A stretch of DNA of 64,000 nt from an uncultured Chloroflexia bacterium (GTDB lineage: Bacteria > Chloroflexota > Limnocylindria > Limnocylindrales > CSP1-4). Position numbers and translations under genes: made by a program. The stretch covers positions 160,001-224,000 of the forward strand of contig CAVXPZ010000003.1 in assembly GCA_963763775.1 (NCBI GenBank), given 5' to 3'. The notes under the pieces were generated by a model. It was not told the origin of the DNA. It made no database searches and worked only from the letters and a program-made list of their open reading frames with translations. Positions 11,808-58,075 of the stretch are shown here, piece by piece. Positions within the stretch are counted from its first letter, which is position 1, and the number at the start of each line of letters is the position of its first letter.

Positions 11808-11865
11808 CCCGGTCGACCCGCTGGGCGCAGGCGCGCACCACATACCGCACGTGCCCTATTGCGCC

Positions 11866-11898
11866 GCAAGGTGGCCGGCAAGGTTACTGTGTAGTACT
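11866..11898 (+). promoter_or_regulatory. Tad-operon upstream motif, copy 1: CAAGGT-N6-CAAGGT-N10-TACT
   Basis: GCAAGGTggccgGCAAGGTtactgtgtagTACT, with identical spacing to the copies at 15543 and 23349. Confidence 0.65.
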
Positions 11899-11929
11899 TG
11901 TCAGCCATCCCCCATCAGGACCTTTGGCA

Positions 11930-12584
11930 TTGCCGCTTCGACGACGCCGGAATGATCGAGCCCGTGGCCAGTCCCTGGCCGAGTTCGCCCTCGTCTTCCC
12001 GTTCTTCATGGTCATCCTGTTCGGCGTCATCGAGTTCGCGTTCGTCCTGAACGCGTCCCTCTCGGTCGAGTTCGCGACGCGCGACGCGGCCCTCGCCGCC
12101 GCCGAGGCCGGCACCACCCCCGGCGCCGACTGCTCGATCCTCAAGGTGGTCGAGGCGAGCATCGGGGCGCCTGCCGACAAGGCGCGGATCCAGGAAGTGC
12201 AGATCTATCGGTCCGACGCAAGCGGCCGCGTGAATGAGAGTCAATTCCTACGCACGAACTGGTGTCACTGTCGAAGGTCCGAACGCGACTACATGTCTGA
12301 TGGCTGACGGCACCAAATTGACCGTGCCGTATTCGGCCAATTCCATCGCCTACAAGGCAACGTCTCGCTGCAACGTCGTCAAGGGCTGCTGCAAGGACGC
12401 CAGCGGGAACGTGGTCCCGTTCACCGACAGTTGCCCGCCGGGGACGACCTTTCGCACGCTCGACACCATCGGCGTGCGAATCGCGTATCGCCACAAGTGG
12501 GTCACCCCAGCAGGGAGCGTCGTCGGAAGCGGAAACTTGGACCTCGTCCAATCGAACACGATGCGGATGGAGCCAGTCCTTTGA
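11930..12584 (+). CDS. TadE-like minor pilin (cassette 1, gene A), frameshift near 12234
   Basis: Class III signal RGQSLAEFALVFP plus hydrophobic helix and ATRDAALAAA. C-terminal half (…NTMRMEPVL) is in another frame and matches the paralogue at 15607. Confidence 0.8.
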
Positions 12585-13228
12585 GCCGAGCGCCGTCGCA
12601 TCGCCGAATGAGCCGATCCGGCCAGAGCCTTGTCGAGTTCGCCATCATCGTTCCGCTTTTCATGCTGTTGCTACTTGGCATGCTCGAACTCGGTCTGGCC
12701 TTCACTCATCATCAGACGCTTGAATACGCCACGCGGGAGGGAGCACGGACAGGATCCGCCCTTGCGAATGGGGGCGGAAAACTAGGTTGCGGTAGCGGGG
12801 GATCACCGAGTGCGGCGACCGTCGATCAGCAGATCGTGGCCGCCGTCGAGCGAGTCCTTACGTCCGAGGGCTCACCGGTCAAAGACAACTTGAGTCGGAT
12901 CCCCACCATCAGGATCTTTCTCGCGACGCCGACCGGCGGTGAGAGTGGCGCGAGCGTCGACGTGTGGAACTACAAGGCGGGAGCCGGGCCTGTCGTGGAC
13001 GGCAAAGCGCTTGATTACGTCGCCGGAACCACGAACTACCCTGCCTGCTCTCGGACATTCCAGCCACCGGCCCAGGCCCTGGGAGTCAGCCTCAAGTACA
13101 CATACCAGCTCCAGACTGGGCTGGGCGGCATCCTCGGCTTCTTCGGCGGCAAAGGCTGGACGTCGATCGCGATGAGCGATAGCACCGTCATGAATATCAA
13201 CCCGACCAATCTGAACTTCGTGCCGTGA
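12581..13228 (+). CDS. TadE-like minor pilin (cassette 1, gene B)
   Basis: SGQSLVEFAIIVPLFMLLLLGMLELG, ATREGARTG. TTGA coupling (alternative ATG at 12608). Confidence 0.85.
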   Translation: MSRAPSHRRMSRSGQSLVEFAIIVPLFMLLLLGMLELGLAFTHHQTLEYATREGARTGSALANGGGKLGCGSGGSPSAATVDQQIVAAVERVLTSEGSPVKDNLSRIPTIRIFLATPTGGESGASVDVWNYKAGAGPVVDGKALDYVAGTTNYPACSRTFQPPAQALGVSLKYTYQLQTGLGGILGFFGGKGWTSIAMSDSTVMNINPTNLNFVP

Positions 13229-15351
13229 CGAGGACAACGATGTCGCTCAATCCATCGCATTCGGCCACTCGCGTGGGCCGATCGCGCTCGCGCGGTCAGG
13301 TCGTGGTGATCTTCGCGGGTGCCATCTTGGCATTCGTGGCGCTGTGCGCGATCGTGGTCGATGTGTCTTGGTATTGGGCCAATACCCTTCGTGTGCAGCG
13401 CGCCGCAGACGCCGCGGCATTGGCGGGAGCGGTCTACCTACCCAGCGACTCAGACACGGCCTTCTCCGAGGCGCGCGCGGCGGCCAAGCGAAACGGCTAC
13501 ACCGATAACCTTGGCGGCGTGACGATCAAGACCTGGATCGACGACAACGATCCGCGGCAACTCGACGTTCAGATCAACGGCAGCGTCGGTTCGTTCTTCG
13601 CTCACGCGCTCGGCATCAATGCGTGGCCCGTTTCGCGGACGGGTGAGGGTGTCTATATCCAGCCCGTGCCTATGGGAAGTCCAGACGCCTACTACGGGGT
13701 CGGTGACTTCTATACGAACGTGAGTTCGACAACGACCGATCGATACGCTTCGGTGTCTCGCTCGCCCTATCAGTCCTCCAACGGCGGCCAGTGGCTGAAC
13801 CCGAATAATGCGTGGACGACCAACAACAACTTCACGACCGAGGACACGAACAATCAAACGCAGGTCTGGCAGAACCTCCAGATGCCCGCGATCCAGGGTG
13901 ACACCCTCGACGGAATCGTGGTGTCGTTCAGCGCCAAGGTGAGCGCTGCGTCGGCCGCCTGCAAGGTCCAGGCGGAGATTTCGTGGAACTCCGGCAATAC
14001 GTGGAACAACGCCAACCCGAAGCTCTTGAGCGGAAACCTGACGACCGCGTTGGTGTCATATCCAGTCGGTGACGCTGGCTCGCTGGCCGTTTGGGGGAAC
14101 AACAACGCCTGGGATGCGACGGACCTAGCGAATGGCGTCTTTCGTGTCCGTCTGAACTACCAGAAGGGCAACGGCTGCGGAACATTGTCCCTGAACTCGC
14201 TCACGGTGACGGCCTATTCGCATACGGACACGACGACCGTGACCCTGACAAAGTCGGTCGTCAAAGACCCGAACAACGTCGTACTCCCCAGTCGAGGCGG
14301 ATGGGGCGCGGTCATCACGCGCGGCGGCAACCAGGAGAACGGCGACGCGTACAGCCCCGAGAACGACGGCGGCGCATCCAATGGCATCTACGACTCCGGC
14401 GGCTACGACTACATCGTGAGCCTTCCGGCCGGCGGCACCGTCAATGTCTTCGACCCGGGGTTCTGTGCCATGGGGCAGGTGGCTGCAGGGAGCATCGGCA
14501 CGGGTGATCACTGGATCGCGGGTGCGTCCAACGATGTGTCCACCTACTACACGCTGTGGAATACCGGCGGCAAGCCAGGTCTACGGAGCACCTGGACGAG
14601 GCTCTACACCTCGGGACCGCTATTCGAGCGACAGCACGGCTATGACCCCGTGAACAACCTGAACCCCCCAAACGGTGCAACCAAGGGTTGTGACGCGTAT
14701 CACAACGGCTGGTGGACCATCCCCACCGGGAATCTTCTAGCCGGCCAATACGCCGTGCAAGTGCAGACGTCCAAGACCGCACCGCCTTCGACATCGGCGG
14801 ATGGTTCGATCAATGCCTCAACCAACGCCGAGAACATGTTTGCCCTCGAGGCGATCGGCGGGGGGAGCCCCCAGATCTACGGAAACGGCCGAATGGCCGT
14901 TTACAACAACCTTCGCCAAGGAAGTCCGACGCAGCAGTTCTACTTGGCGCAGATCGACCGACCGACTGGCGCAAGCAAGACGGCCCTCATCGACATCTTC
15001 GATCCGGGTGACGTCGCCGGTGAAGCGACGCTGAAGGTGCTCAGCCCGAACGGTGGCGGCCAGTCCGAAGCTACGTTCAGCTACACCACGGACGGCAACT
15101 GCAACGCCGGCGTCAGTGATGCGTGCTCTGGGTTGAATGTGAAGCAGCTGAAGACCGCCACCAACGGCAGGTCAAGCTTCAACAACACCTGGATCCACAT
15201 CAGCATCCCATTGCCGGCCAGCTATGGTGCGGGCGGGCTCTGGCAGGGCGGATGGTGGCAAATCCAATACATCACGCCCAACGGCGGAAATGACACCACC
15301 ACGTGGCAGGTCAACATCCAGGGCAATCCTGTGCACTTGGTCGTCCCGTAA
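13225..15351 (+). CDS. Large Tad-domain (TadG-like) pilus-tip/adhesin protein (cassette 1, gene C)
   Basis: RGQVVVIFAG, VDVSWYW, LRVQRAADAAALAGA Tad domain, long Asn/Gly/Thr/Trp-rich extracellular region with paired Cys, ends GNPVHLVVP. Confidence 0.85.
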   Translation: MTRTTMSLNPSHSATRVGRSRSRGQVVVIFAGAILAFVALCAIVVDVSWYWANTLRVQRAADAAALAGAVYLPSDSDTAFSEARAAAKRNGYTDNLGGVTIKTWIDDNDPRQLDVQINGSVGSFFAHALGINAWPVSRTGEGVYIQPVPMGSPDAYYGVGDFYTNVSSTTTDRYASVSRSPYQSSNGGQWLNPNNAWTTNNNFTTEDTNNQTQVWQNLQMPAIQGDTLDGIVVSFSAKVSAASAACKVQAEISWNSGNTWNNANPKLLSGNLTTALVSYPVGDAGSLAVWGNNNAWDATDLANGVFRVRLNYQKGNGCGTLSLNSLTVTAYSHTDTTTVTLTKSVVKDPNNVVLPSRGGWGAVITRGGNQENGDAYSPENDGGASNGIYDSGGYDYIVSLPAGGTVNVFDPGFCAMGQVAAGSIGTGDHWIAGASNDVSTYYTLWNTGGKPGLRSTWTRLYTSGPLFERQHGYDPVNNLNPPNGATKGCDAYHNGWWTIPTGNLLAGQYAVQVQTSKTAPPSTSADGSINASTNAENMFALEAIGGGSPQIYGNGRMAVYNNLRQGSPTQQFYLAQIDRPTGASKTALIDIFDPGDVAGEATLKVLSPNGGGQSEATFSYTTDGNCNAGVSDACSGLNVKQLKTATNGRSSFNNTWIHISIPLPASYGAGGLWQGGWWQIQYITPNGGNDTTTWQVNIQGNPVHLVVP

Positions 15352-15371
15352 AGGCTGAGCACACGGTTGAG

Positions 15372-15437
15372 GCCAACGACACCACGACCTGGCAGGTCAG
15401 CGTCAAGGGCAACCCGGTCCACCTGATCCTTCCCTAG
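15372..15437 (+). pseudogene. Orphan 3' end of a third TadG-like allele (ANDTTTWQVSVKGNPVHLILP*)
   Basis: 48/63 nt identical to 15289-15351, with many differences synonymous. It has its own TAG stop and no start codon. Confidence 0.85.
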
Positions 15438-15542
15438 GCCGTCGGACGGCCGCCCACGACCCCTCGGTATCGGGCCGGTGTGTGCCCATGTCCGCCGGGC
15501 CGGTGCGCCCATCCACCAGTGATTGACCCCGGGCCCTTGTGT

Positions 15543-15575
15543 GCAAGGTCTGGCGCAAGGTACCTCTGTAGTACT
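15543..15575 (+). promoter_or_regulatory. Tad-operon upstream motif, copy 2
   Basis: GCAAGGTctggcGCAAGGTacctctgtagTACT. Confidence 0.65.
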
Positions 15576-15606
15576 TGTCGCCCATCCCCCATCAGGACCT
15601 TTGGCA

Positions 15607-16188
15607 TTGCCGCTTCGACGACGCCGGAATGACCGTGAACGAGGCCAATCCCTGGCCGAGTTCGCGTTGGTCTTCCCGTTCTTCATCGTCATCCTGTTCG
15701 GCGTCATCGAGTTCGCGTTCGTCTTCAACGCGTACCTCTCGATCGACTTCGCGACGCGGGATGCCGCGCTGGCGGCAGCCGAAGCCGGCAACGACACCGG
15801 CGCCGACTGCTCGATCCTGCGGGCGATCGAGCGGAGCATCGGCGCGCCGGCCGACAAGGGCAGCATCGCGAAGGTCCGGATCTTCAAGGCCAGCACGACC
15901 GGTGCCAACCTCGGTCCGACCAACGTCTACACCCGGACCGGCGCGACCCCGTGCCCGGACGGGTCGGGCAGCATCCCGTACACCATCCAGTCCACCGGCT
16001 ACGCCGAGTCCGCGCGTTGCAACATCCTCGCCGGCTGCGGTCCAGGGTCCCTGACGGTCGACACGATCGGCGTCGAGATCACCTACACGTACGCCTGGAA
16101 GACGCCGTTGGCCCGCCTCCTGCCGATGAGCGGCAATGGCTACACGATGATCAAGGACAACGCGATGCGGATGGAGCCGGTCCTGTGA
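15607..16188 (+). CDS. TadE-like minor pilin (cassette 2, gene A)
   Basis: RGQSLAEFALVFPFF, ATRDAALAAAEAG, ends NAMRMEPVL. TTG start after AGGA. Confidence 0.85.
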   Translation: MPLRRRRNDRERGQSLAEFALVFPFFIVILFGVIEFAFVFNAYLSIDFATRDAALAAAEAGNDTGADCSILRAIERSIGAPADKGSIAKVRIFKASTTGANLGPTNVYTRTGATPCPDGSGSIPYTIQSTGYAESARCNILAGCGPGSLTVDTIGVEITYTYAWKTPLARLLPMSGNGYTMIKDNAMRMEPVL

Positions 16189-16763
16189 CCCGCGGGCGTC
16201 GTCGCGGCCAGAGCCTCGTCGAGTACGCGGTGACGGTCCCGGTCTTCCTCCTGATCCTGCTCGGCCTGCTGGAGTTCGGCTTCGCGTTCTCCCATCACCT
16301 GACGATGGAGTACGCGTCGCGCGAAGGCGCCCGCGTCGGCGCCGCCCTGGCCAACGGCACCGACCAGTTCCCGTGCGCAAAGGTCGACGACCAGGTCATC
16401 GCGGCGGTCCAACGCGTCCTTGTCGCGTCGGGCTCCCAGATCGACCTCAGCCAGGTCAAGGAGATCCGCATCTACAACGCGAACAACGTCAACGGGAACG
16501 AGGGGTCGCAGGTCAACCGGTGGCGACCCGGGACCGGCCCGGTCGTGCCAGGCGAAACGCAACCGCTCAAGTTCGCCTTCTTCTCGGGCAACTGGTCGGC
16601 ATGCAATCGCGTGAACGCCGCCGACCCGGACTCCATCGGCGTCGCGGTCTCCTACACCTACCGCTTCGTGACGCCGCTCGCGTCGCTCATGCGGATCGCC
16701 GGGCCGGCGGTGCTGCAGATGAACGACCGGACCGTCATGGCCCTCAACCCCACCGTACCGTGA
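16185..16763 (+). CDS. TadE-like minor pilin (cassette 2, gene B)
   Basis: RGQSLVEYAVTVPVFLLILLGLLEFG, ASREGARVG. GTGA coupling. Confidence 0.85.
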   Translation: MTRGRRRGQSLVEYAVTVPVFLLILLGLLEFGFAFSHHLTMEYASREGARVGAALANGTDQFPCAKVDDQVIAAVQRVLVASGSQIDLSQVKEIRIYNANNVNGNEGSQVNRWRPGTGPVVPGETQPLKFAFFSGNWSACNRVNAADPDSIGVAVSYTYRFVTPLASLMRIAGPAVLQMNDRTVMALNPTVP

Positions 16764-19055
16764 GCGTGCGATCGATGGAACCGATGACGAGCAGCGCGAC
16801 CACGGGCCGCCGCCACCGACCCCGCGGCCAGGTCCTCGTGATCTTCGCGGGCGCGCTGTTCCTGCTGATGATGATGGCCGCCATCGTCATCGACGTCTCC
16901 TGGTACTGGGTCAACTCGCTCCGTGTCCAGCGCGCCGCGGATGCGGCGGCGCTCGCGGGCGCCGTGATGCTCCCCAATGACCCGTCCACCGCCTACACGC
17001 TGGCCCGTGATGAGGCCAAGCGCAACGGGTACGTGCCCGGGGCCGTCGCGGGCGGCAACATCGTCATCACGCCGCTCCAGGACGGCGGCAACCCGCGTCG
17101 CCTGGACGTGACGATCTCGGCTCCGGTCGGGACGTTCTTCATGAAGGTGATCGGCATCCCGTTCATCAACGTGACCCGGACCGCCAAGGCGGAATTCACG
17201 CTCCCCGTGCCGATGGGCAGCCCGCAGAACTACTACGGCGTCGGCATCCTCAACGTGCCCACGGTCACCAGTAGGGCCACCGGCTGGCGCATCCGCAACA
17301 ACGAAGTCGGCAACTGGACCAACGCGATGCAGGCCGACAGCACGATCAGCAACTCCAGCAGCCAGTGGGCCGCGTCTCCGACCGGGAACAGCCCCCAACA
17401 GCAGTGGACCGAATTCGGCCTGGAGAACGGCGCCAACGCCGTTCCGAACGACGCGTCGCTCGAGGTCCTCGGGATCGAAGTCCGGTCACGCGCGTTCCTC
17501 CAGGGCAGCGGCAATTCGACCAGCGGCTGCCAGATGAGCGTCCAGCTGTCGTGGAACAACGGGAATAGCTGGACGACAGCCGAAGCGCAGAACAACCTGC
17601 CGACGTCGCCACCGCCGACCACGCCGGTCTCGGCGACCGTCCCCTACAACGTGAACCTGGGCAGCAATGCCGACGACTGGAACCACACCTGGTCGTATGA
17701 CGACCTGACGAGTACCGGCAGCTCCAGCTTCCGGGTGCGCGTGACGTTCAACAACCAGGCGGGGAACTGCTCCAACAGCCGGACCCTGGCGATCGACACC
17801 CTCGAGGTCCAGGTGTCCTGGCGTGTGACCGGCCCGCCGACGCCCCAGCCCGTCAAGGACCCGTACAACGCCGGGGTCCTCGCCCCACAGAAGTTCTGGG
17901 GCGCGATGCAGAGCCAGGGTGCGCCGAGCGTCCAGGGCGACGCCTTCATGACCGGCTATGAGACCCGGAAGTCCACGACCAACTCCGAGTACCACCCGTT
18001 GCAGGGCTACGGCGGCAGCTCGCAGGAGTACTACGACTACGGGGTCGAGCTCCCCGGGGGCGGCGGCGAGGTCTGGATCTACGACCCGGGGTTCTGCGAC
18101 ACCGGCTTGTACGGCTCGGGCAACAACGTCACGAACCAGGGAACCGGCGAGAGCTGGACCGTTGGTGGCTCGAATGGCGCGGATCCGGCCCGACCGGTCA
18201 GCGCGCAATACGTCCTGTACGACACGAACGGCACGCCCTACGAGTACGGCGACGATCCCGTCAAGGCGTCGTCCGGGAGCACGTTCCGACGGATGATGCT
18301 GTCCGATCCGAATCTGAGCGGCGGGTCAGGCGGGAGCTACCCGGGTGTCTCGAGCTGCGCAGGCCTCGCGTGGCACGACAACTGGTGGCGTCTCGCGAGC
18401 GGTCTTCCTGCCGGGACGTATCGGCTGCACACCACCTCCCGCATCTACAACCCGTTCGTGACCCCGAAGACGATCGATGGCTCGGACGACCAGACCGACT
18501 CGACCGGGTTGAACGCCTTCGCGATCTGGGTCAATTCGAGCAGCGGCAAGCCGCGGGTCTACGGCCTCGGGGCGATGGAGGCGTACTTCCCGCTGCCGGG
18601 CAACCAGACCTCGGTCTTCTACCTCGCGCAGATCGACAAGGTCCATGCCGGCAAGTGGGTCGACATCGACCTCTGGGACCCTGGGGACACGGGTTCACTC
18701 TCGGCGACCCTGCAGGATCCTGGCTCCCGATGGGGGCAGCGGGTCGATCCAGCCGTTCTACTGGAACGCCTGGACCGGGACGGACCTGCCGTCGAACTTC
18801 ACGTGTGGTCCGACCACCAGCAATCAGACGCAGAGCATCGTGACGAGCAACGGCAGCGGCGGCATCTTCAACGGCCGATGGCTGCGGATCTGCTTCAAGC
18901 TCGATGACAACTACGCCGCGCCGCTCGACCCGACGTTCAACGAGCCGGGGTGGTGGCGGATCAGTTACCAGATGACCGGCAGCGGCGCGAGCACCGACCT
19001 CACCACCTGGAAGGTCACCGTCCGCGGCAACCCCGTCCACCTCGTCATCCCGTAA
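16760..19055 (+). CDS. Large Tad-domain (TadG-like) protein (cassette 2, gene C), frameshift near 18716
   Basis: RGQVLVIFAG, IDVSWYW, VQRAADAAALAGA, PVPMGSPQNYYGVG, FYLAQID, IDLWDPGD. Continues in another frame to TTWKVTVRGNPVHLVIP*. Confidence 0.85.
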
Positions 19056-19118: not shown

Positions 19119-19835
19119 ATGTTGAGCACGCCGCGGCCGCGGATCCTGCTCGTCGACGACGACCCGAGCCTGCTCGTGGCGCTCGCCGAACTGCTTCGCA
19201 ACGACGGGTTCGTCGTCACGACCGCGCGGGACGGCGATGAGGCGCTGCGTCGCCTCGACCAGGGCTGGCCGGACCTCCTGATCATCGATCTGCTGATGCC
19301 CCGCATGGACGGCCTCAGCCTCGCCCGCGAGATCAAGGCCCGGGCCGACCTGCCGATCATCGTGCTGTCGGCCATCGACGCCGGCGACAACAAGGCGGAC
19401 CTCCTCGACGAGTTCGCCGAGGACTACATCACCAAGCCGTACCACTATGCGGAGCTCCGCGCCCGGATCCACCGCGTGCTGCGCCGGGTGGGCGACCGTG
19501 TCCCGCGCCAGGCCGTCCGCGTGGGCCCGGACCTCGTCCTCGAGCTGCATCGCCGCCAGGCGGTCGTCGGCGGCCAGGAGGTCGCGCTCACGCCGACCGA
19601 GTCGCGCCTGCTGTTCGCCCTGGCGGCGAACATCGGGCGGACCGTCACCACGGAGACGCTGCTGTCGCGTGGCTGGGCCGAGACCGACGAGGCCGACCCG
19701 TCCTATGTGTGGGTCACGATGCGACGCCTCCGCCAGAAGATCGAGGTGGACCCGAATGCCCCGCGCCATCTGCTGACCGTGCGCGGCGTCGGCTACCGAC
19801 TCGTCGGCGAACCGACGACGGGAGGCACGCCCTGA
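19119..19835 (+). CDS. OmpR/PhoB-family response regulator
   Basis: ILLVDDD, DLLIIDLLMP, DYITKPY, winged helix LTPTESRLL...LLTVRGVGYRL. CATACT 7 nt upstream. Confidence 0.93.
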   Translation: MLSTPRPRILLVDDDPSLLVALAELLRNDGFVVTTARDGDEALRRLDQGWPDLLIIDLLMPRMDGLSLAREIKARADLPIIVLSAIDAGDNKADLLDEFAEDYITKPYHYAELRARIHRVLRRVGDRVPRQAVRVGPDLVLELHRRQAVVGGQEVALTPTESRLLFALAANIGRTVTTETLLSRGWAETDEADPSYVWVTMRRLRQKIEVDPNAPRHLLTVRGVGYRLVGEPTTGGTP

Positions 19836-19909: not shown

Positions 19910-21366
19910 ATGCTCGACCTCTCTCCGCCGACCCCACGACGGCCGCCGCGGGAACCGGCCCAGTCGCGGTTCTCCTACCAGACTCGCCTGACGCTCGCGA
20001 TCGTCGCGGCCGCCGTCGTCCCGCTCGGCGCTGTTCGGGATCCTGCTGATCGTGACCGGGACGCTGGACCCGCAGCTCGGTGGGCGCATCCTGCTGTTCG
20101 TCGTCGCGGTGACGGTCGTCCTCGCCATCGTCGTCGGGTACGCCCTGAGCCTGAGCCTCATCGAGCCGCTCCGGGACATCGCGGACGCCGTTCGACGCGT
20201 GAGCGATGGCGACCTGTCGCAGCCGATCCCGGTCAACGGCTCCGACGTGCTCGCCCAGCTCGCGGAGAGCCACAACCGGCTCGTGGCCGACGCGGAGCGT
20301 CGCAACCGTCAGCTCGGCATGATCCTCGCCGCCGTCGAGCGCGCCTCCCCCGAGGACGGGACGGAAGCCCTCGCCGACCGGGCGACACGCGACGCGGAGG
20401 AGATCTTCGAGCTCATCGCCGGCGCGATCACGTTCACCGACCCGAAGGCCGTGCCCGAGGTGGAACGCGTCCCCGGCGACCCCCTGACCGTCCGCGCGGA
20501 CATGCGCGTCGGCGACCAGCCGATCGGCGTGCTGATCGGGCGGCTGCCGGCGACGAGGACCTGGGAGCGTGCCGATCAGGCGCTCTTCGAGCTCTATGGG
20601 AGCGAGATCGCGGCCGCCGTCCGGAACGCCCAGCTGTTCGCGCAAGTCGAGGCCCAGAACGCCCAGCTCCGCCAGCTCGACGAGGCGAAGGACGACTTCC
20701 TCCGAGGCGTCAGCCACAACCTCCAGACGCCGCTGACGCGGATCAAGGCCAACGCCGAGGGCCTCGAGCGCACGGTCGACGACCCACGGCTCGGGAGCAT
20801 CAGCGACCAGGCGGACCGGCTGTCGCGGATGGTGGCGCAGCTGCTCCTGGTCGGCCGGCTCGGCTCGGGCCAGCTCCGGCCGCAGGCGGACGTCATCGCC
20901 GTCGGGGCGCGGATCCGACGCGCGTGGGACGCGCTCGCCGCGGAAGGCCGGGCGTTCGACCTCGACGACGCGTCGGGCGGCTGGCTGGCCGTCGCCGACG
21001 GCGACCAGCTCGACCAGGTCCTGTGGGCGCTCCTCGACAACGCGGTCAAGTACGGCGAGGGCGGCGTCGACGTCGCGATCGGCGCCGACGACGAGGGCCG
21101 CCGCGGTGTGGGCCACGATCACGTCCGGCGGGCCGGGTCTCACCGAGGCGGATCGCGAGTGGCTCTTCGAACGATTCGCCCGCGGTGCGACCGGTCGCGC
21201 GACCGGCGACGGGAGCGGTCTCGGCCTGTACGTCTCCCGGGCGCTGATGCGAGGCATGGACGGCGATCTCGACCTCGACCCCGCCGAGCCCGGACGTGGC
21301 GCTCGGTTCCGGCTGACCCTTCCCGGCGAGCCGCCACCGGTCGACGCGGAGTCCGGGCGTGGCTGA
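19910..21366 (+). CDS. Sensor histidine kinase (TM-HAMP-GAF-like-HisKA-HATPase), frameshifts near 20027 and 21100
   Basis: HAMP (PLRDIADAVRRVSDGDLS), H-box VSHNLQTPL, N-box LLDNAVKY, FERFARG, GSGLGLYVS. Start position uncertain. Confidence 0.82.
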
Positions 21367-21502
21367 GCGGAATTCTGTGGCGCGTTCGCGCACCACTGGT
21401 GCACCGAATCCACCACGGCGGCGACCGGAGCGGCGAGACTGTAGGGGACGCCGTGCGCACCCGCGGCTACGTACGACGACGCCCGACACCGAGGTCCAGA
21501 CG

Positions 21503-22490
21503 ATGACGGAACAAGAACGACGACGCCGACGGTCCGTGCACCTGCGGATCGGCGCGGTCCTGGCCCTCTGCCTGGTCGGCGCCGTGCCGGTCGTCGTCGC
21601 GATGGCCGCGTCACCCGACCCCGGTTCGTCGGCGCCGACCCGCGGCTCCTGCCGCCACCGCCGACCCGTCCGGCACCACGAGCAAGCCGGCCGGCGACGG
21701 CAAGGGCGGCCTCCGGCTCGACCTGCGCGGGTTCGGTGGCGGGATCGATCTCGGCCGCGGCGGGATCACGATCACCGCGATCAACGGCTCGAGCATCTCC
21801 CTCAAGACCGATGACGGCTGGACGCGGACGATCACGGTCACGCCGGACACCAAGATCCGGAAGGGCGGCCAGGACGCGACGGCCGCGGACCTCGCGGTTG
21901 GCGACAAGATCCGGCTCGCCCAGAAGCGCAACGACGACGGCACCTACACGGTGACCGCGATCGCGGTGCCGACGCCGAGGACGGGCGGCGAGGTCAGCGC
22001 CATCAGCGGCGACACGCTCACGCTGAAGCGTCGGAACGGCGAGACCCAGACGGTCACCCTGACCGGCTCCACCAAGTACACCTTCGGCAAGGATGCCGGG
22101 ACCAAGGCCGACGTCACGGTCGGGTCGCAGGTGACGGTCGAGGGCACGACGTCCGGGACCGACTTCACCGCACTCTCGGTCCACGTCCAGCCGACCGTCG
22201 TCGCCGGCGAGGTCACCGCCAAGACAGCCACCAGCCTGACGCTGAAGCAGCGCGACGGCTCGACGATCGTCGTCCATGTCTCGGCCGACACCAAGTACGG
22301 GCTCCGCGGCGGCAAGACCGGCGGACTGGCCGATATCGCCGTCGGCGACAAGGCGTGGGCCTCGGGCAAGACCCGCGGCGACGGCTCGCTCGATGCGACC
22401 GGCGTCGCCAACGGGTTCGGCCGTGGCAAGGGCGACCACAAGGACGCGAAGCCGGGTTCCTCGGCCGCACCGAGCGCGACGGCCGGCTGA
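21503..22490 (+). CDS. Exported protein with repeated OB-fold-like DUF5666-type domains, frameshift near 21640
   Basis: Signal/TM segment IGAVLALCLVGAVPVVVAMAA, then three repeats of the pattern G.ITAI.G..LTLK...T...DL.VGD.V. Confidence 0.65.
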
Positions 22491-22526
22491 TCGACGGCTT
22501 CGCCGTCAACGGTTACGATCGCTCGC

Positions 22527-23348: not shown

Positions 23349-23381
23349 GAAAGGTCCTGCGCAAGGTCCCGGTCCCATACT
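23349..23381 (+). promoter_or_regulatory. Tad-operon upstream motif, copy 3
   Basis: GAAAGGTcctgcGCAAGGTcccggtcccaTACT, with a CATACT -10-like element. Confidence 0.6.
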
Positions 23382-23467
23382 CGACCCCTGATGTCGTGCG
23401 CCGGGGGGCATGCGTCATCCATACGACGCCAACGCGTCGTCATCCTCGCGACCCAGGGACCCCCCGG

Positions 23468-25078
23468 ATGCCACACCTCGTCCCCACCGACGCCCCCACG
23501 CGTCGGCGCCGCCCGCTCCTCCCGACCGCCCGATCGACGTCCCGCCCGCGCGGGACCCGGCGCAGCCGTGGGCAGGCCCTCGTGGAACTCGCCCTCGTCA
23601 CGCCCCTCCTGTTGCTCCTCTTCGCCGCGGCCGCCGACCTCGGCCGTGCCTTCTATGCCTATGTCGCCGTCGAGAACGCCGCGAAGGAAGGCGCGCTCTT
23701 CGGCTCACGCGCGCCGCTCTGCGACGCCAGTACGGGCGGGGCGTGCACCGATCCGAACAACGTCACGTGGCATGTGCAGCAGGAGCTCCAGAACCTGCGT
23801 ATGCCCGACGGGACGACGCCGGTCCCGACGGTCCAGTGCCTCGATGCGAGCAACGGGGCACCCCGAACCGCGCTGAAGGACTGCGCCGAGGGCGATACCT
23901 ATGCCGTCGGCGTCCAGGTGCCGTTCAAGATGCTGACACCGGTCCTCGGCAGCCTCATCGGGAACCTTCAGATCGCGTCGACGTCGCGCGCGGTCGTCCT
24001 GAACCTCGCCTTCGACCCATCGCCGGGTTTGAGCGTCCAGAAGTTCGTGCAGCCTACCGGCGCCATCAATGCCTCGGCGATCACCTCGAAATGCCTCGAC
24101 CCAAACGACCGCGATGCGGCCGGCTACTACCGCAGCCCGTGCCTCGACCTCTCGACGCCGGATCCGACCGACAAGCTGTGGGTGCACTTCGAGCAAGGCG
24201 ACACGATCGCGTACAAGATCGCCTTGCGGAACACGGGGGCGCAGAACCTGTCCGGCATCACGGTCGTCGATTCGCGCGGCTCGACCGGTTGCTCCTTTCC
24301 CACGTCGCTCGCCGCGGGTTCCTCGGCCTTCACCTGCACCTACACAAGGACGGCGCCGACCGTTTCCGGCGTGCCCGACTCGATGGACTACGCGAACACC
24401 GTCACGGTGGACTCGTCCGGGACCTTGCCGTCGCAGGACGGCGTCACCGTCGTCGTCGAGCGCCCGCCAGCCGAGTTCCAGGTCCTCAAGTGGGTGAGCC
24501 CGTTCAAGGAAGGTGACGACGGCGACGGGACGCCCGGGTTCGGGACGCAACCCACGGTGGCCGTGAGCTACAGCGCGCAGATCCCGCAGCCCGCGGTCTG
24601 GTTCAAGGTCATCGTCCGGAATGTCGGAGGGCGGACGGCCAGCGCGGTCGCGATCGCCGACTCCCACGGGGCCCTGCCATACGGACAGAACAACGCCACG
24701 GCCGTCTGCGACGCGGCTCCGACGAGTCTGGCCGCGAACGGGATCTTCCAGTGCAGGTACCGCGTGACCTATGCCTCGGCGCAGGTGGCCACGAACACGG
24801 TGTCGGCGACGAGTCCGGACGTCACGCCCGACAGCAACGACACGGCCACCGCGACGGCCACGGTCACGGCGTGCACCGGCGCCACTCGGGTCGTGCCGGA
24901 CCTGATCGGCCTGGCCAAGGCCGCAGCCCAGACCGCCTGGACCAGCGCCGGGTTCACCGGCACCTTGTCCGTCTGGAGCGGTCAGCCGAGCGCCACGGTC
25001 GTGACCCAGACGCGCCCGGCGTACGGCTGCATCGCCGCCAACTCGACGATGACGATCGGAAGGACGACCACGCCATGA
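23468..25078 (+). CDS. TadE-like pilin fused to two Ig-like (DUF11/DUF7507-type) repeats and a C-terminal PASTA-like domain
   Basis: RGQALVELALVTP, ENAAKEGA. Repeats GDTIAYKIALRNTG..LSGITVVD and WFKVIVRNVG..VAIAD, each ending NTV. Tail VVPDLIGL..AAAQTAW..AGF. Confidence 0.78.
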   Translation: MPHLVPTDAPTRRRRPLLPTARSTSRPRGTRRSRGQALVELALVTPLLLLLFAAAADLGRAFYAYVAVENAAKEGALFGSRAPLCDASTGGACTDPNNVTWHVQQELQNLRMPDGTTPVPTVQCLDASNGAPRTALKDCAEGDTYAVGVQVPFKMLTPVLGSLIGNLQIASTSRAVVLNLAFDPSPGLSVQKFVQPTGAINASAITSKCLDPNDRDAAGYYRSPCLDLSTPDPTDKLWVHFEQGDTIAYKIALRNTGAQNLSGITVVDSRGSTGCSFPTSLAAGSSAFTCTYTRTAPTVSGVPDSMDYANTVTVDSSGTLPSQDGVTVVVERPPAEFQVLKWVSPFKEGDDGDGTPGFGTQPTVAVSYSAQIPQPAVWFKVIVRNVGGRTASAVAIADSHGALPYGQNNATAVCDAAPTSLAANGIFQCRYRVTYASAQVATNTVSATSPDVTPDSNDTATATATVTACTGATRVVPDLIGLAKAAAQTAWTSAGFTGTLSVWSGQPSATVVTQTRPAYGCIAANSTMTIGRTTTP

Positions 25079-25542
25079 CGCCCGAACGGACCCACCGGCG
25101 ACGTGGGCAATCCCTCGTCGAATTCGCCCTGGTCCTCCCGATCTTCGCCATCCTGCTGTTCGGCATCATCGACTTCGGCCGGTTCGTGTACGCGGCCAAC
25201 GCCCTGAACAACGGTGTCCGTGAGGGTGCCCGCTCCGGCTCCGTCACGATCCGACCGTCACCGCTTTGCGACGGTCTGAGCCGCGATGCGTGTGTCAAGG
25301 CGGTCGTCGCCAACCTCTCCTGGGGCGTCCCGGGCAGCTCGATCACCACGACGGTGACCTGTGAGCGCGTGGTCCCGAACAACCCGACGCCGCAGCCGGT
25401 CATCCCGATTTCGGGCTGCCGCACCAACGACCTGCTGCGGGTGAAGGCCACGGCGCCGTTCACGCTCGTGACACCGCTCATCGCGCAGTTCCTCGGCGGA
25501 CGGACGCTCTCCGGCGAAGCCCTGGTCACCGTGAACCAATGA
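25075..25542 (+). CDS. TadE-like minor pilin
   Basis: RGQSLVEFALVLPIFAILLFGIIDFG, VREGARSG, TPLIAQF. ATGA coupling. Confidence 0.88.
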   Translation: MTPERTHRRRGQSLVEFALVLPIFAILLFGIIDFGRFVYAANALNNGVREGARSGSVTIRPSPLCDGLSRDACVKAVVANLSWGVPGSSITTTVTCERVVPNNPTPQPVIPISGCRTNDLLRVKATAPFTLVTPLIAQFLGGRTLSGEALVTVNQ

Positions 25543-25592
25543 TCCGCGCCACCCGCCCTCTCGTCCCCTCGCGACCCTCGAAGGAGCCCCCG

Positions 25593-26696
25593 ATGCGCCT
25601 CGCCCGCTCTCCACGTTCCCGATCGCCACGCGGCCAGATCCTGGTGATCGTCGCGGGCGGCCTGATCGGACTGCTCGCCATCGGCGCGTTCGCCCTCGAG
25701 GGTGGCACGCTGGTCCTCAATCGTCGCGATGGGCAGAACGCCGCCGATCTCGCCTCCTTGGCCGGCACCCGGATGGTGGCCTTGAGCCACACGGCGTCGG
25801 CGACCGGCGCCGACGTGTTCACGGCCATCCAGGGGTCGCTGGACAGCAACGACTGCCATGCAGCTTCGGGGACGCCGTGCACCTGGACCGCGCGGTTCGT
25901 CGGGGCCGGCCTCGCCGACCTCGGGGCGGTCTCCGGCAGCGGGACCGTGCCAGGGGCGGCGCTCGGCGTGCGGGTCGGCGTCACCCGCCAGCCCGGCGCC
26001 ATGCTGGGCCGAATCCTCGGGTTCGACCACTGGACCGTCACGACCGAGGCCACGGCCATCGCCGCCGAGCCGTCCCAGTTCCCCACCGGGATCCTGCTCC
26101 CGATCGCCCTCTGCGGTTGGGGACAGACGGGCGTCAATGACTGTCTGCAGGCTTCGAACAGTCCGGCCAACGTCATCAAGTTCCAGCCCAACCAGATCTA
26201 CGACATCACGGACGGCATGGATGCCCCGGGCGGGTTCGGCTGGTTGTCCTGGACGGGATCGAACTCAGCGGGCGCCCTTTCAGACAGCATCTGCACCCCC
26301 GACAACATCGGTTTCTCCCTCGACAACCCGTTCAATTCCCCCGGTACCTACAGCGGGACGCCCGGGACCAACCCGGCGGACGGGGAGACATGGTTCCCCG
26401 CCGATCCCGGGAAGTCGAACAAGGCCTCGATGCGAGCCTGTCTCGACGGGTGGATCTCCAGTCGAGCGACCGTCCTCATCCCCGTCTACGACATCGTCAC
26501 GGGCAATGGCAACAACGCCGCGTATCACATCACCGGCGTCGCGGCGTTCGTCTTGACATCGCGGGAGCAGCCAGCCGTCGACAACATCCAGGGTTACTTC
26601 GTGCAGTACTACCCGTACACGGACGTCCCGGGTGGGCTGGGGACCCAGCCACCAGGGCCGGACGACACGACGTACTTCCTGGGTCTCGTGAAGTAG
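25593..26696 (+). CDS. Tad-domain (TadG-like) protein
   Basis: RGQILVIVAGG, RRDGQNAADLASLAG, PGGFGWLSW, VLIPVYD, YHITGVAAF. AAGGAG RBS (alternative start 25539). Confidence 0.8.
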   Translation: MRLARSPRSRSPRGQILVIVAGGLIGLLAIGAFALEGGTLVLNRRDGQNAADLASLAGTRMVALSHTASATGADVFTAIQGSLDSNDCHAASGTPCTWTARFVGAGLADLGAVSGSGTVPGAALGVRVGVTRQPGAMLGRILGFDHWTVTTEATAIAAEPSQFPTGILLPIALCGWGQTGVNDCLQASNSPANVIKFQPNQIYDITDGMDAPGGFGWLSWTGSNSAGALSDSICTPDNIGFSLDNPFNSPGTYSGTPGTNPADGETWFPADPGKSNKASMRACLDGWISSRATVLIPVYDIVTGNGNNAAYHITGVAAFVLTSREQPAVDNIQGYFVQYYPYTDVPGGLGTQPPGPDDTTYFLGLVK

Positions 26697-57883: not shown

Positions 57884-58075
57884 CTCGATGGCCTCCGTTG
57901 GCCTTCGCGCCTCGCCGGCGGCCAACGCCGTCAGCGGGCATGCCCCTGACGCCAGCCCATCGGACCCGGTTCCGCCGCCGACACGACGGCCGACACATCG
58001 GCCGACCCCGCCCCGTCCGAGACCCGACCGCCGGCGTCGAGCAGCCCGACCGACCGGCCCGCCCGGAGGTTCGTG

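What the first reader, a model, noticed from the sequence alone, without database searches (positions are those of the whole stretch)
11866..19055. Tandem Tad minor-pilin cassettes with fixed ends and variable middles: a candidate pilus-tip exchange system
Seen: two tandem three-gene units (TadE-A, TadE-B, large TadG-like) about 3.68 kb apart. Their 5' ends are nearly identical (11890-11955 vs 15567-15632, 64/66 nt, including a 51-nt perfect match over leader and signal peptide). Short anchors recur at gene ends (MRMEPVL, NPT, PVPMGSP..YYGVG, TTW.V...GNPVHL), while the extracellular middles are strongly diverged. No Flp major pilin, ATPase or peptidase lies in the window. Established: TadE/TadG-like proteins are minor pilins of type IVc pili. 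Inference: these are interchangeable tip modules for a pilus encoded elsewhere. Conserved ends would act as homologous-recombination anchors, giving adhesin or phage-receptor variation without a dedicated recombinase.
Basis: partly seen in the sequence, partly recalled or inferred. Interest (0 to 1): 0.8.

Follow-up and report, generated by a model that had tools for sequence, protein, structure and literature searches.

The report
Mosaic tandem Tad pilus-tip gene sets
An uncultured soil bacterium carries side-by-side gene sets for alternative tips of an adhesive pilus, and comparison with relatives shows that these sets have been rebuilt repeatedly by recombination, although nothing shows that they are swapped on demand.

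Summary
There are two TadE/TadE/TadG-like three-gene sets 3677 nt apart, with 64/66 identity and a 51-nt perfect run at their 5' ends.

- a third, different set at 23.4-26.7 kb;
- an orphan TadG 3' tail at 15354-15436;
- a single-base frameshift in A1 (12242) and in C2 (18716), probably assembly indels;
- a tandem GCAAGGT box in front of all three sets, next to an OmpR-family regulator.

The short "anchors" at gene ends are family-wide conserved motifs. The 3' ends show no extra similarity within genomes.

Recombination is nonetheless well supported. A1 and C2 are phylogenetic chimeras. The middle domain of C1 differs from that of its orthologues. The body of set 1 is a GC3 outlier that ends at the orphan tail. 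The closest syntenic relatives hold one set, not two. In other relatives, paralogues share near-identical 5' parts (up to 96% over 1.9 kb) joined to deeply diverged heads.

The two heads belong to two ancient classes that co-occur in 18 of 23 multi-copy loci. Each set has its own promoter.

Best reading: co-regulated alternative tip complexes, a kind published in 2025, that evolve by gene conversion and allele displacement. It is not a programmed switch.

The parts
11866..11898 (+). Promoter region of set 1. It holds the direct repeats GCAAGGT (11866-11872) and GCAAGGT (11878-11884), an 8-nt spacer, and a -10-like AGTACT (11893-11898).
   Evidence: The box CAAGGT-N6-CAAGGT occurs with 0 mismatches only here and at 15544 in the 64 kb. 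The same layout is found upstream of A genes in relatives. Its function is inferred.
11930..12584 (+). A1, a TadE-like minor pilin with a TTG start (11924 is also possible). It is interrupted by one extra base at 12242. The 5' part up to about 12170 is homogenised with A2, and the 3' part is orthologous to the A gene of L005.
   Evidence: Pfam PF07811 E 2.3e-12. The two frames are colinear with L005 A.
12608..13228 (+). B1, the second TadE-like minor pilin of set 1.
   Evidence: Pfam PF07811 E 4e-17. It is 66-69% identical to the B genes of L005, L034, L037 and L002. Its GC3 is 0.74.
13240..15351 (+). C1, a 703-aa TadG-like protein. It has a pilin-like N-module (about aa 1-160), a hypervariable insert domain (about aa 165-340, roughly 13711-14281), and a class II head domain (about aa 345-703) that ends in the conserved tail.
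   Evidence: Pfam PF13400 covers the N-terminus only. Family alignment. Domain-wise identities. The gap in nucleotide synteny with L005 falls exactly over the insert.
15354..15436 (+). An orphan relic of a further TadG-like gene: its last 27 codons and stop (AEHTVEANDTTTWQVSVKGNPVHLILP*), with host-like GC3.
   Evidence: translation; 92.7% over 55 nt to the C tail of L005. In one search it is the only tail with no homologous gene body upstream, among 107 tail motifs; best match L005 at 0.89, but others reach 0.86-0.88. GC3 0.89.
15543..15575 (+). Promoter region of set 2: GCAAGGT (15543-15549), GCAAGGT (15555-15561), and a -10-like AGTACT (15570-15575).
15607..16188 (+). A2, a TadE-like minor pilin, intact.
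   Evidence: Pfam PF07811 E 7e-13. It is 60-62% identical to the A genes of L054, L061, L066 and L068.
16185..16763 (+). B2, a TadE-like minor pilin. Its GTG start overlaps the A2 stop.
   Evidence: Pfam PF07811 E 1.2e-14. It is 62-64% identical to the B genes of L054, L059, L061, L066 and L068.
16775..19055 (+). C2, a TadG-like protein interrupted by one extra base at 18716. Its N-module is of the L054 type and its head domain is class I, so it is a chimera.
   Evidence: Pfam PF13400 E 2.7e-8. Frames. Trees and AU tests.
19119..19835 (+). An OmpR/PhoB-family response regulator, the candidate binder of the direct-repeat boxes.
   Evidence: Pfam Response_reg plus Trans_reg_C. The best NCBIfam model is MtrA, below its cut-off. 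Homologues of at least 50% identity lie in 26 of 76 related loci.
20052..21506 (+). The partner histidine kinase (HAMP and HisKA). Its HATPase part lies in another frame (21106-21366), so this gene is also split.
23349..23381 (+). Promoter region of set 3: GAAAGGT (23349-23355), GCAAGGT (23361-23367), and a -10-like CATACT (23376-23381).
   Evidence: (1 mismatch).
23396..26696 (+). The third set. A3 is a large TadE-like protein with DUF7507/DUF11-type repeats (to 25078). B3 is 25075-25542. C3 is 25539-26696 and is TadG-like with an unrelated C-terminal part.

Best explanation
The window holds three complete minor-pilin sets for a Tad (type IVc) pilus whose motor, platform and major pilin are encoded elsewhere.

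How a set is built (inferred by analogy, not shown here): two small TadE-like pilins (A and B) and the pilin-like N-module of the large TadG-like protein (C) probably form the base of a tip complex. The rest of C, a hypervariable insert plus a roughly 360-aa head, is what the pilus presents to the outside.

Sets 1 and 2 carry heads of two ancient classes (II and I) that many relatives keep side by side. The cell can therefore make pili with different tips.

All three sets have their own promoter, preceded by a tandem GCAAGGT-N5-GCAAGGT box placed like a pho box. The neighbouring OmpR-family regulator probably switches them on together (inferred).

The locus is not a programmed switch. It is an evolutionary hot spot in which ordinary homologous recombination, anchored in the conserved 5' segments, and occasional one-sided illegitimate joins have homogenised 5' ends, swapped heads and inserts, and displaced alleles. 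The conserved 5' segments are the promoter, leader, pilin N-termini and the C N-module. In this genome the traces are:
- a converted 5' tract of about 300 nt;
- a chimeric A1;
- a chimeric C2;
- a foreign-type insert in C1;
- a low-GC3 body of set 1;
- an orphan C tail.
For: Identity and architecture:
- Pfam gives TadE for A and B and Tad for the C N-terminus.
- A and B have G/QSLxE[FY] with Glu at +5. C has G/QVVVI with no Glu. From recall, this is the pattern of tip-capping subunits such as GspK.
- Tad machinery genes sit beside such sets in 3 of 13 related loci scanned.
- The C family is large: 636 hits among the 8000 candidates scored, and 248 representatives at E<=1e-30.
- C is three-part. 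Of 95 complete genes, 23 lack the insert. Mean pairwise identity is 0.58 for the N-module, 0.34 for the insert and 0.45 for the head.

A link between the A-B base and the C N-module:
- C genes that share one upstream A-B pair have N-modules at median 0.75 identity (n=16). Those with their own A-B pair are at 0.62 (n=19; Mann-Whitney p 2.7e-4).
- Among the latter, N-module identity follows B-B identity (rho 0.55, p 0.014).

Ancient head classes:
- The split has support 100. Of 23 sources with more than one classified C gene, 18 hold both classes.
- Class II keeps the GDHW and AEN motifs, which vary in class I.

Regulation:
- The box matches with 0 mismatches only upstream of A1 and A2, and with 1 mismatch upstream of set 3. 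At up to 2 mismatches, 1.2 matches are expected in the window.
- In relatives, 38 of 185 box matches lie 20-260 nt upstream of A/B-type starts, against 2.5 expected.
- The RR is OmpR/PhoB family. RR homologues lie in 26 of 76 loci.

Recombination in the window:
- A1-A2 identity is 0.80-0.98 from 11871 to about 12167, then 0.4-0.7. A1-L005 identity is 0.66-0.82 throughout.
- In the 5' tree, A1 and A2 are sisters (91/71). AU rejects A1+L005+L034 (p 0.013).
- In the 3' tree, A1 groups with L005 (100/97). AU rejects A1+A2 (p 9e-5).
- The C2 N-module groups with the L054 group (83). The head data reject that grouping (p 7e-44), and the N-module data reject the head neighbours (p 9.5e-5).
- C1 against the syntenic L005, L034 and L037: N-module 0.75-0.77, head 0.70-0.71, insert 0.28-0.29. 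Nucleotide synteny breaks exactly over 13711-14281.
- GC3 is 0.74-0.79 for A1b, B1 and C1, against 0.901 +/- 0.050 for 37 other ORFs. It is 0.88 for the 5' tract and 0.89 for the relic.
- In relatives, set GC3 is mostly close to flank GC3 where flank genes were available for comparison, with exceptions such as L025, L031 and L036.

Recombination in relatives:
- Shared 5' tracts: L020 96.2% over 1923 nt, L057 88.3% over 1862 nt, L072 81.9% over 1730 nt. C-C arrays share only the first 410-460 nt of C.
- Of 33 within-locus C pairs, 10 have N-module identity >=0.77 with head identity of only 0.35-0.54. At most 1% of between-genome pairs of like head identity reach that.
- Head data reject the L020, L063 and L050 pairs as clades (p 2e-46 to 1e-54).

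Variable content between fixed flanks.
Against: - No structure or complex model could be made, so the tip complex and the outward-facing role of the head rest on analogy with Herrou et al. 2025 and on the A-B/N-module covariation.
- Binding of the RR to the box is inferred from position and family only. No canonical sigma-70 promoter was found by the consensus scan.
- The window's own C1 and C2 N-modules are not homogenised (0.55). In this genome the conversion signal is confined to about 300 nt, of which the coding part is only somewhat more alike (about 85%) than the best between-genome matches (78-80%).
- A1+L005 alone is not rejected for the 5' part (p 0.061).
- The groups for all AU tests were chosen after trees or identity tables had been seen. 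Pairs are not independent: L056 and L058 come from one MAG and are nearly the same locus.
- The GC3 deviation is 2.2-3.2 sd, not extreme.
- The relic's nearest match (L005, 0.89) barely exceeds several others (0.86-0.88). A simple deletion of a middle set would also leave it.
- If the two frameshifts are real, neither set 1 nor set 2 is complete.
- All comparisons are between species. The rate and recency of the events are unknown.
Confidence: 0.6

Rival explanations
1. The tandem sets are an active exchange system: homologous recombination between conserved ends shuffles or replaces tip modules often enough to give tip (adhesin or phage-receptor) polymorphism within populations, as pilE/pilS does in Neisseria.
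For: - All the recombination footprints listed above.
- Set number varies between the same flanks.
- There is an orphan tail like the orphan 3' pieces of Rhs/T6SS loci.
- A 51-nt perfect run is long enough for RecA-type pairing (the length requirement is recalled).
Against: - Each set has a promoter box, a ribosome-binding site and start codons, so there is no silent donor copy.
- C1 and C2 are members of two old classes kept together in 18 of 23 multi-copy sources.
- The 3' ends show no homogenisation.
- There are no inverted repeats around the promoters, no SSR at the frameshift sites and no recombinase.
- The nearest relative is a different species (flanks 76-77% identical), so the events may be ancient and rare.
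- No population data could be examined.
Confidence: 0.15
2. An old, stable duplication. The like ends reflect only purifying selection on promoter, signal peptide and docking motifs, and no recombination is involved.
For: - The end motifs are conserved across the whole family.
- The box and -10-like element are conserved in other species.
- The two head classes are ancient.
- The window's C1 and C2 show no mosaic signal between N-module and head relative to each other.
Against: - The non-coding 5'UTR and leader are 51/51 identical between the paralogues, yet only about 0.66 identical to the orthologue in L005.
- Trees within A1 and within C2 are incongruent, with AU rejection.
- L020 has 96% nucleotide identity over 1.9 kb next to heads only 36% identical.
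- L005 and L037 lack set 2.
- Set 1 shows a GC3 discontinuity and is followed by a relic tail.
Confidence: 0.08
3. Decay. The frameshifts are real, A1 and C2 are pseudogenes, and the locus is being lost. At most one working mixture (A2, B1/B2, C1) remains.
For: - Single-base frameshifts lie at 12242 and 18716, outside homopolymers.
- An orphan tail shows that at least one C gene was lost.
- GC3 is lowered in set 1.
Against: - Both split genes are otherwise colinear with intact relatives and keep the family's conserved positions downstream of the shift.
- At least three unrelated genes in the window are split in the same way.
- 17 of 122 C genes in the related, mostly long-read, MAGs are also split. 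This points to assembly indels.
- B1 and C1 are intact ORFs with all invariant residues.
Confidence: 0.1
4. Assembly artefact. Two strain alleles of one locus were concatenated in tandem by the metagenome assembler.
For: - The two sets resemble the single sets found next to nth in two different groups of relatives, the L005 type and the L054 type.
- Set 1 has a different GC3.
- The assembly is indel-prone.
Against: - The sequence between the sets is not the nth-A spacer. It is a C-tail relic plus 105 nt of unique sequence.
- Both outer flanks are syntenic with L005.
- Tandem sets are seen in many independent assemblies, including short-read ones such as L017, L042 and L063.
Confidence: 0.05

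Closest known systems
Kil Tad pilus 'Tip' clusters kilL/M/N 1-4 of Myxococcus xanthus (Herrou et al. 2025, PMC12075869; abstract and sections 8 and 16 read, term search)
   Same: - Both have several paralogous three-gene clusters of TadE-, TadF- and TadG-like minor pilins.
- In both, the large TadG-like member carries an extra C-terminal domain of unknown fold, proposed to form the exposed end of an interchangeable tip.
- In both, some clusters lie away from the machinery genes.
   Different: - Here the sets are tandem, in an uncultured Chloroflexota (Limnocylindria-type) lineage, and each follows a conserved direct-repeat box beside a two-component system.
- The head family is unrelated by sequence. 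The paper found its tip1-4 genes restricted to Myxococcota.
- The paper says nothing on recombination or mosaic evolution of the clusters. 'Recombination' occurs only in its methods.
- No complex model or function is available here.
Minor-pilin/PilY1 sets of type IVa pili in M. xanthus (Treuner-Lange et al. 2020, PMC7541494; search listing and start of abstract only)
   Same: There are multiple alternative sets of minor pilins plus a large tip protein, and these prime and cap one pilus machine.
   Different: It is a different pilus class (IVa), with four minor pilins plus non-pilin PilY1. There are no tandem mosaic arrays.
Rhs / CdiA / T6SS effector-immunity loci with a constant 5' part, a variable 3' part and orphan 3' pieces (Kirchberger et al. 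2017, PMC5361080; passages read)
   Same: - A conserved upstream segment serves as the homology anchor.
- The incoming variable part displaces the old one.
- A remnant of the displaced 3' end stays downstream, as in the homology-facilitated illegitimate recombination model.
   Different: - Those are toxin/immunity systems, and the relics are kept because they give immunity.
- Here there is a single 83-nt relic of a pilus protein with no evident use.
- Here most events look like ordinary gene conversion.
pilE/pilS antigenic variation of Neisseria type IV pili (recalled, not read here)
   Same: The pilin N-terminal part is constant and the exposed part is variable, and gene conversion takes place between copies in one genome.
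   Different: That system has one expressed gene, many promoterless silent partial copies and a dedicated initiation element. Here every set is complete and has a promoter.
PhoB-type promoters (pho box), bound by OmpR-family regulators as tandem dimers (recalled)
   Same: Two 7-nt direct repeats about one helical turn apart stand in place of a -35 element, a fixed short distance (8 nt here) upstream of a -10-like hexamer. An OmpR/PhoB-family RR gene lies next door.
   Different: The repeat sequence differs (GCAAGGT), the spacing is 12 nt rather than 11, and binding is untested.

Membership tests
TadE-like minor pilins (Pfam PF07811) | An N-terminal TadE domain, comprising a short basic leader, a G/xxxxE[FY] processing motif and a hydrophobic helix. 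| tested here: met
   A1, B1, A2 and B2 score 47-62 bits against a cut-off of 22.9. The motifs RG/QSLAEF, SG/QSLVEF and RG/QSLVEY were read.
TadE-like minor pilins (Pfam PF07811) | Cleavage by a TadV/CpaA-type prepilin peptidase and incorporation into a Flp pilus. | not testable with these tools
   No peptidase or Flp gene lies in the window. This needs an experiment.
TadG-like proteins (Pfam PF13400 'Tad') | An N-terminal Tad domain, a pilin-like hydrophobic segment. | tested here: met
   C1 scores 27.7 bits and C2 34.4 bits against a cut-off of 22.3. All 41 members of alignment A1 match.
Tad tip complex of the KilL/M/N kind | A three-gene cluster of two small TadE/F-like pilins and one large TadG-like pilin with an extra C-terminal domain. 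| tested here: met
   The order A-B-C holds in the window and is the common order in the 76 related loci. Some loci carry extra C genes, and some are cut by contig ends.
Tad tip complex of the KilL/M/N kind | Several paralogous clusters in one genome. | tested here: met
   Three sets lie in the window.
Tad tip complex of the KilL/M/N kind | The three proteins assemble into a heterotrimer through their N-terminal helices, with the large protein's extra domain at the apex. | not testable with these tools
The only indirect support is the covariation of the C N-module with the A-B pair.
Tad tip complex of the KilL/M/N kind | A genetic or functional link to a Tad machine. | tested here: inconclusive
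   There is none in the window. In relatives, cpaB is adjacent in L013 and L015, cpaE-like plus cpaF lie in L015, and cpaF plus tadB lie in L065. That is 3 of 13 loci scanned.
pilE/pilS-type programmed antigenic variation | Promoterless, partial silent donor copies beside one expression locus. | tested here: not met
   Every set has the box, a -10-like element, a ribosome-binding site and full-length genes. The only partial copy is the 83-nt relic.
pilE/pilS-type programmed antigenic variation | Sequence heterogeneity at the locus within a clonal population. | not testable with these tools
Phase variation by slipped-strand mispairing or by an invertible promoter | A homopolymer or short repeat at the frameshift site, or inverted repeats flanking the promoter. 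| tested here: not met
   The extra bases at 12242 and 18716 lie in non-repetitive sequence. TRF finds no array there. No inverted-repeat pair brackets the promoters.
OmpR/PhoB-family regulon (pho-box-like promoters) | A winged-helix OmpR-type RR encoded at the locus. | tested here: met
   Response_reg plus Trans_reg_C, with many OmpR-family NCBIfam models at E<=1e-30.
OmpR/PhoB-family regulon (pho-box-like promoters) | Direct repeats about one helical turn apart at the -35 position of the regulated promoters. | tested here: met
   All three sets have them. The box is enriched upstream of A genes in relatives, 38 observed against 2.5 expected. Transcription start sites are not known.
OmpR/PhoB-family regulon (pho-box-like promoters) | The RR binds the repeats and controls transcription. 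| not testable with these tools
   This needs EMSA or DAP-seq and expression data.

The most novel reading that the evidence does not exclude
Across this Chloroflexota lineage, the Tad tip loci work as a capture-and-displacement system for pilus heads, comparable to Rhs/CdiA loci. The conserved 5' block (promoter box, leader, A, B and the C N-module) is the homology anchor through which new head and insert domains are taken in from DNA of relatives, while old ones are pushed downstream or erased. Natural populations would then be polymorphic for what their pili bind, or for which phages can use them. The hypervariable insert of C would be the main target of that selection.
Probability: 0.15. 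Interest if true: 0.8.

Novelty: new variant of a known kind. Interest (0 to 1): 0.5.

Why it matters
- Interchangeable Tad pilus tips were proposed only in 2025, for a predator. This locus suggests that the same principle operates in an abundant, uncultured soil and freshwater lineage.
- It adds two things that I did not find in print. One is a clear recombinational, domain-wise mode of evolution of tip genes: a conserved pilin adaptor, swappable heads and a hypervariable insert. The other is a conserved candidate regulatory box that ties all the sets to one two-component system.
- It defines a large family of about 700-aa TadG-like proteins, with 248 cluster representatives at E<=1e-30. The roughly 540-aa outer part has no Pfam, PDB or Atlas match. 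This makes it a concrete target for structure and binding studies.
- If exchange proves to be ongoing in populations, it would be a new example of surface-organelle diversification without a dedicated recombinase.

Tried and rejected
- Structure prediction of C1 was asked for five times. Each time the tool answered that it was not ready, so there is no fold and no fold search.
Nothing was folded.

Searches for the nature of the C head, all empty:
- a profile search of the PDB found 0 hits at E<=1;
- the Atlas gave only the protein's own kind at 0.79 and no named lead;
- Pfam on all 41 members of alignment A1 found only Tad/TadE N-terminal matches;
- NCBIfam gave only sub-threshold TadE-like N-terminal hits.

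Other negative searches:
- no mobile-element link, with tblastn of C1 finding nothing in plasmids or phages;
- no Rfam family in 11.0-27.5 kb;
- the 5'UTRs fold no better than shuffles (z +0.5 to +1.3);
- no sigma-70 consensus promoter and no excess of terminators;
- no tRNA near the sets.

Ideas dropped:
1. The A1 frameshift marks a recombination joint. It is a single extra base in an otherwise colinear gene.
2. The 3' motifs are recombination anchors.
3. Orphan tails are common in relatives. The four other candidates are frameshifted full genes.
4. The relic can be assigned to a particular donor. Its matches are too close together.
5. Set 1 as a whole is foreign. It is colinear with the set of L005 at about 70%, against 76-77% for the flanks. 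Only its GC3, its insert and the relic point to allele import.

Full report
WHAT IS THERE

The window is about 70% G+C. Between an nth-like glycosylase gene (10968-11807) and an OmpR-family response regulator (19119-19835) lie two three-gene sets on the + strand.
- Set 1: A1 11930-12584, B1 12608-13228, C1 13240-15351.
- Set 2: A2 15607-16188, B2 16185-16763, C2 16775-19055.
- A and B are TadE-like (PF07811). C carries the TadG-type 'Tad' domain (PF13400) at its N-terminus and nothing known in its remaining ~540 residues.
- A and B have the motif G/QSLxE[FY] with Glu at +5. C has G/QVVVI without it. From memory, a missing Glu5 is typical of the subunit that caps a pilus-like fibre, such as GspK.

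CHECK OF THE OBSERVATION

- The spacing is 3677 nt. Identity is 64/66 over 11890-11955, with a 51-nt perfect run at 11905-11955. The whole like tract, 11866-12182, matches at 271/317.
- The rest is far apart: C 36% aa, B 44%, the A C-terminal part 37%.
- No pilus ATPase, platform protein, prepilin peptidase, Flp pilin or recombinase was found among 97 ORFs or by a motif scan.

Four things were missed.
1. A1 and C2 are each broken by one extra base, c at 12242 and g at 18716. With that base skipped, both are colinear with intact relatives.
2. A third TadE/TadE/TadG-like set of different build lies at 23396-26696.
3. Right after the C1 stop lies an 83-nt relic (15354-15436) that encodes the last 27 residues of another C protein. 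Of 107 tail motifs in the window and 76 related loci, five had fewer than 150 open codons upstream. The other four are frameshifted full genes, so this is the only true orphan.

WHOSE GENES

- The C family is large: 636 hits among the 8000 candidates scored, and 248 cluster representatives at E<=1e-30 and 1259 at E<=1e-10 among 1.84 billion.
- Named members are MAGs of Chloroflexota, mostly Candidatus Limnocylindrales or 'uncultured Chloroflexia'.
- One genome scan gave 76 related loci, which I mapped with the window's proteins.
- In 3 of 13 loci scanned with Pfam, Tad machinery genes sit beside such sets: cpaB in L013 and L015, cpaE-like plus cpaF in L015, and cpaF plus tadB in L065. This supports the assignment to Tad pili.

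ANATOMY OF C

An HMM of the family splits C into three parts.
- An N-module, columns 1-160, ending at PVPMGSPxxYYGVG.
- An insert, about columns 170-335.
- A head, columns 345-709, ending in the invariant tail.
- Of 122 C genes, 95 have both N-module and head. Of these, 23 lack the insert and 72 have it.
- Mean pairwise identity is 0.58 (N-module), 0.34 (insert) and 0.45 (head). In 59 of 143 pairs whose heads are >=0.65 identical, the inserts are <=0.40 identical.
- The heads fall into two deep classes (support 100). C1 is class II and C2 is class I. Of 23 sources with more than one classified C gene, 18 hold both classes.
- Class II keeps GDHW and AEN, which vary in class I.

The pair in the window is therefore not two versions of one thing. 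It is one member each of two old kinds.

VARIABLE CONTENT BETWEEN FIXED FLANKS

- The nearest relative, L005, is 76-77% identical in the flanks at the nucleotide level. At the protein level nth is 85%, the RR 91% and the HK 88% identical.
- L005 has a single set between nth and the RR, and so does L037. L034 has a single set next to nth, but there DUF5666 and DUF6812 follow the set and the RR lies further downstream.
- That single set is colinear with set 1: 69.6% over 11864-13711 and 70.2% over 14281-15349.
- The break in synteny falls exactly over the insert. There C1 is only 0.28-0.29 identical to L005, L034 and L037, while its N-module is 0.75-0.77 and its head 0.70-0.71 identical.
- Another group (L054, L059, L061, L066, L068; nth 78-83%) carries next to nth a set whose A, B and C N-module resemble set 2 (A 60-62%, B 62-64%) but whose head is class II.
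- Other genomes hold two or three tandem sets, or one A-B pair followed by two or three complete C genes.

RECOMBINATION FOOTPRINTS IN THE WINDOW

(a) The 5' tract.
- A1-A2 identity is 0.80-0.98 from 11871 to about 12167 and drops to 0.4-0.7 after that. A1-L005 identity is 0.66-0.82 throughout.
- Upstream of 11871, set 1 is like L005 (0.70) and not like set 2 (0.52).

(b) A1 is a chimera.
- For codons 14-85 (216 nt), A1 and A2 are sisters (91/71), inside the L054 group (95/84). A tree holding A1 with L005 and L034 is rejected (AU p 0.013). With L005 alone the result is p 0.061.
- For the 3' part, A1 goes with L005 (100/97), and A1+A2 is rejected (p 9e-5).

(c) C2 is a chimera.
- Its N-module groups with the L054-group class II genes (83) and its head with class I genes.
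- Each data set rejects the other's grouping (p 7e-44 and 9.5e-5).

(d) Composition.
- A1 downstream of the tract, B1 and C1 have GC3 of 0.74-0.79, against 0.901 +/- 0.050 for 37 other ORFs.
- The 5' tract (0.88), the relic (0.89) and set 2 (0.91-0.93) are host-like.
- In the related loci with flank genes to compare, set GC3 mostly tracks flank GC3, with exceptions such as L025, L031 and L036.

Together with the relic, this fits the import of an allele of set 1 from a lower-GC relative. The left crossover would lie in the conserved A 5' region and the right end would be joined illegitimately just before the resident tail. This is the homology-facilitated illegitimate recombination scheme invoked for T6SS and Rhs loci with orphan 3' pieces (Kirchberger et al. 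2017, passages read). A plain deletion of a middle set would also leave the relic. The relic's best match is L005 (0.89 over 57 nt), but others reach 0.86-0.88, so its origin is not settled.

THE SAME PROCESS IN RELATIVES, MORE CLEARLY

- Self-comparison of loci shows long, nearly identical 5' blocks followed by unlike heads: L020 96.2% over 1923 nt (upstream region, A, B and the first ~470 nt of C), L057 88.3% over 1862 nt, L072 81.9% over 1730 nt (inverted).
- C-C arrays share only the first 410-460 nt of C, at 77-88%. The right edge always falls at the end of the N-module.
- Of 33 within-locus C pairs, 10 have N-modules >=0.77 identical while their heads are 0.35-0.54 identical. Among between-genome pairs with like heads, the mean is 0.56 and at most 1% reach the observed value. 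L056 and L058 come from one MAG and count twice.
- In the N-module tree, same-locus paralogues are sisters (support 76-99). The head data reject them as clades (p 2e-46, 1e-54 and 3e-54 for L020, L063 and L050).
- C genes that share one A-B pair have more alike N-modules (median 0.75, n=16) than those with their own pair (0.62, n=19; p 2.7e-4). In the latter, N-module identity follows B-B identity (rho 0.55, p 0.014). This is what one expects if A, B and the N-module fit together.

Caveats: I chose the groups for the AU tests after seeing trees or identity tables, and the pairs are not independent.

WHAT IS NOT SUPPORTED

- The 3' ends are not homogenised. Tails of 57 nt are 0.770 identical within sources (n=47) against 0.750 between sources (n=5518).
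- The window's own C1 and C2 N-modules are ordinary (0.55).
- There is no silent copy, no invertible segment, no simple repeat at the frameshift sites, no tRNA or integrase nearby, and no match on plasmids or phages.

REGULATION (INFERRED)

- Upstream of A1, A2 and A3 stands GCAAGGT or GAAAGGT, then 5 nt, then GCAAGGT, then 8 nt, then a -10-like nnTACT.
- The box has 0 mismatches only at 11867 and 15544, and 1 mismatch at 23350 and at one site inside an ORF (61080). About 1.2 matches at up to 2 mismatches are expected by chance.
- In relatives, 38 of 185 matches to a looser box lie 20-260 nt upstream of A/B-type starts, against 2.5 expected.
- The layout recalls pho boxes (recalled). The adjacent RR is OmpR/PhoB family, and RR homologues of at least 50% identity occur in 26 of 76 loci.
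- Part of the 5' likeness is therefore functional constraint. The 51/51 identity of the 5'UTR and leader, against about 0.66 to the L005 orthologue, is not.
- No RNA family or unusually stable fold is present there.

THE FRAMESHIFTS

- Both are single extra bases in non-repetitive sequence.
- At least three other genes in the window are split in the same way: the glycerate kinase and two histidine kinases.
- 17 of 122 C genes in the related, mostly long-read, MAGs are also split.
- I therefore read them as assembly indels, but cannot exclude real pseudogenes.

VERDICT

The locus is best read as co-regulated alternative Tad tip sets of a kind already described in principle (Herrou et al. 2025; abstract and sections 8 and 16 read). 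The new elements are the tandem mosaic organisation, the domain-wise recombination and the shared box.

In my searches I found no paper on recombination among Tad minor-pilin clusters or on pili of Limnocylindria.

The following stayed unchecked:
- the rest of this genome.

Noticed in passing
window 23349-26696 (+): A third minor-pilin set of different build. A3 is a large TadE-like protein with DUF7507/DUF11-type repeats. B3 is TadE-like. C3 is a 385-aa TadG-like protein with an unrelated C-terminal part. The set follows the same direct-repeat box as sets 1 and 2.
   Followed up: partly
window 21951-23237 (+): A DUF5666 gene and a DUF6812 gene sit between the two-component system and set 3. 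DUF6812 homologues accompany the sets in 11 related loci, which suggests a role in the same system.
   Followed up: no
window 9672-10963; 20052-21506; 52212-53910 (-): The glycerate kinase and two histidine kinases have their Pfam domains spread over two overlapping frames. The assembly seems prone to single-base indels.
   Followed up: partly
L052, L056, L058, L060, L063, L017, L018, L023 (related loci, around positions 8.6-16.9 kb): These arrays have one A-B pair followed by two or three full-length C genes. In L052, L056, L058 and L063 the first C is class II and the second class I. Some of the C genes lie only about 20 nt apart, so they are probably co-transcribed.
   Followed up: partly
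window 57950-60715 (+) and 61858-63360 (-): An ATP-dependent DNA ligase and a LigD primase-polymerase domain gene form a non-homologous end-joining pair. This could be relevant to illegitimate joins, but that is pure speculation.
   Followed up: no
window 6283-9147 (+): A long ORF with two universal-stress-protein domains fused to a family-2 glycosyltransferase lies next to the glycerate kinase. The same fusion is seen in L004.
   Followed up: no
window 13711-14281 (insert of C1): GC3 within C1 rises to 0.88-0.90 over codons 181-270, against 0.68-0.78 elsewhere in the gene. This hints that the insert has yet another origin than the rest of the low-GC3 segment.
   Followed up: no
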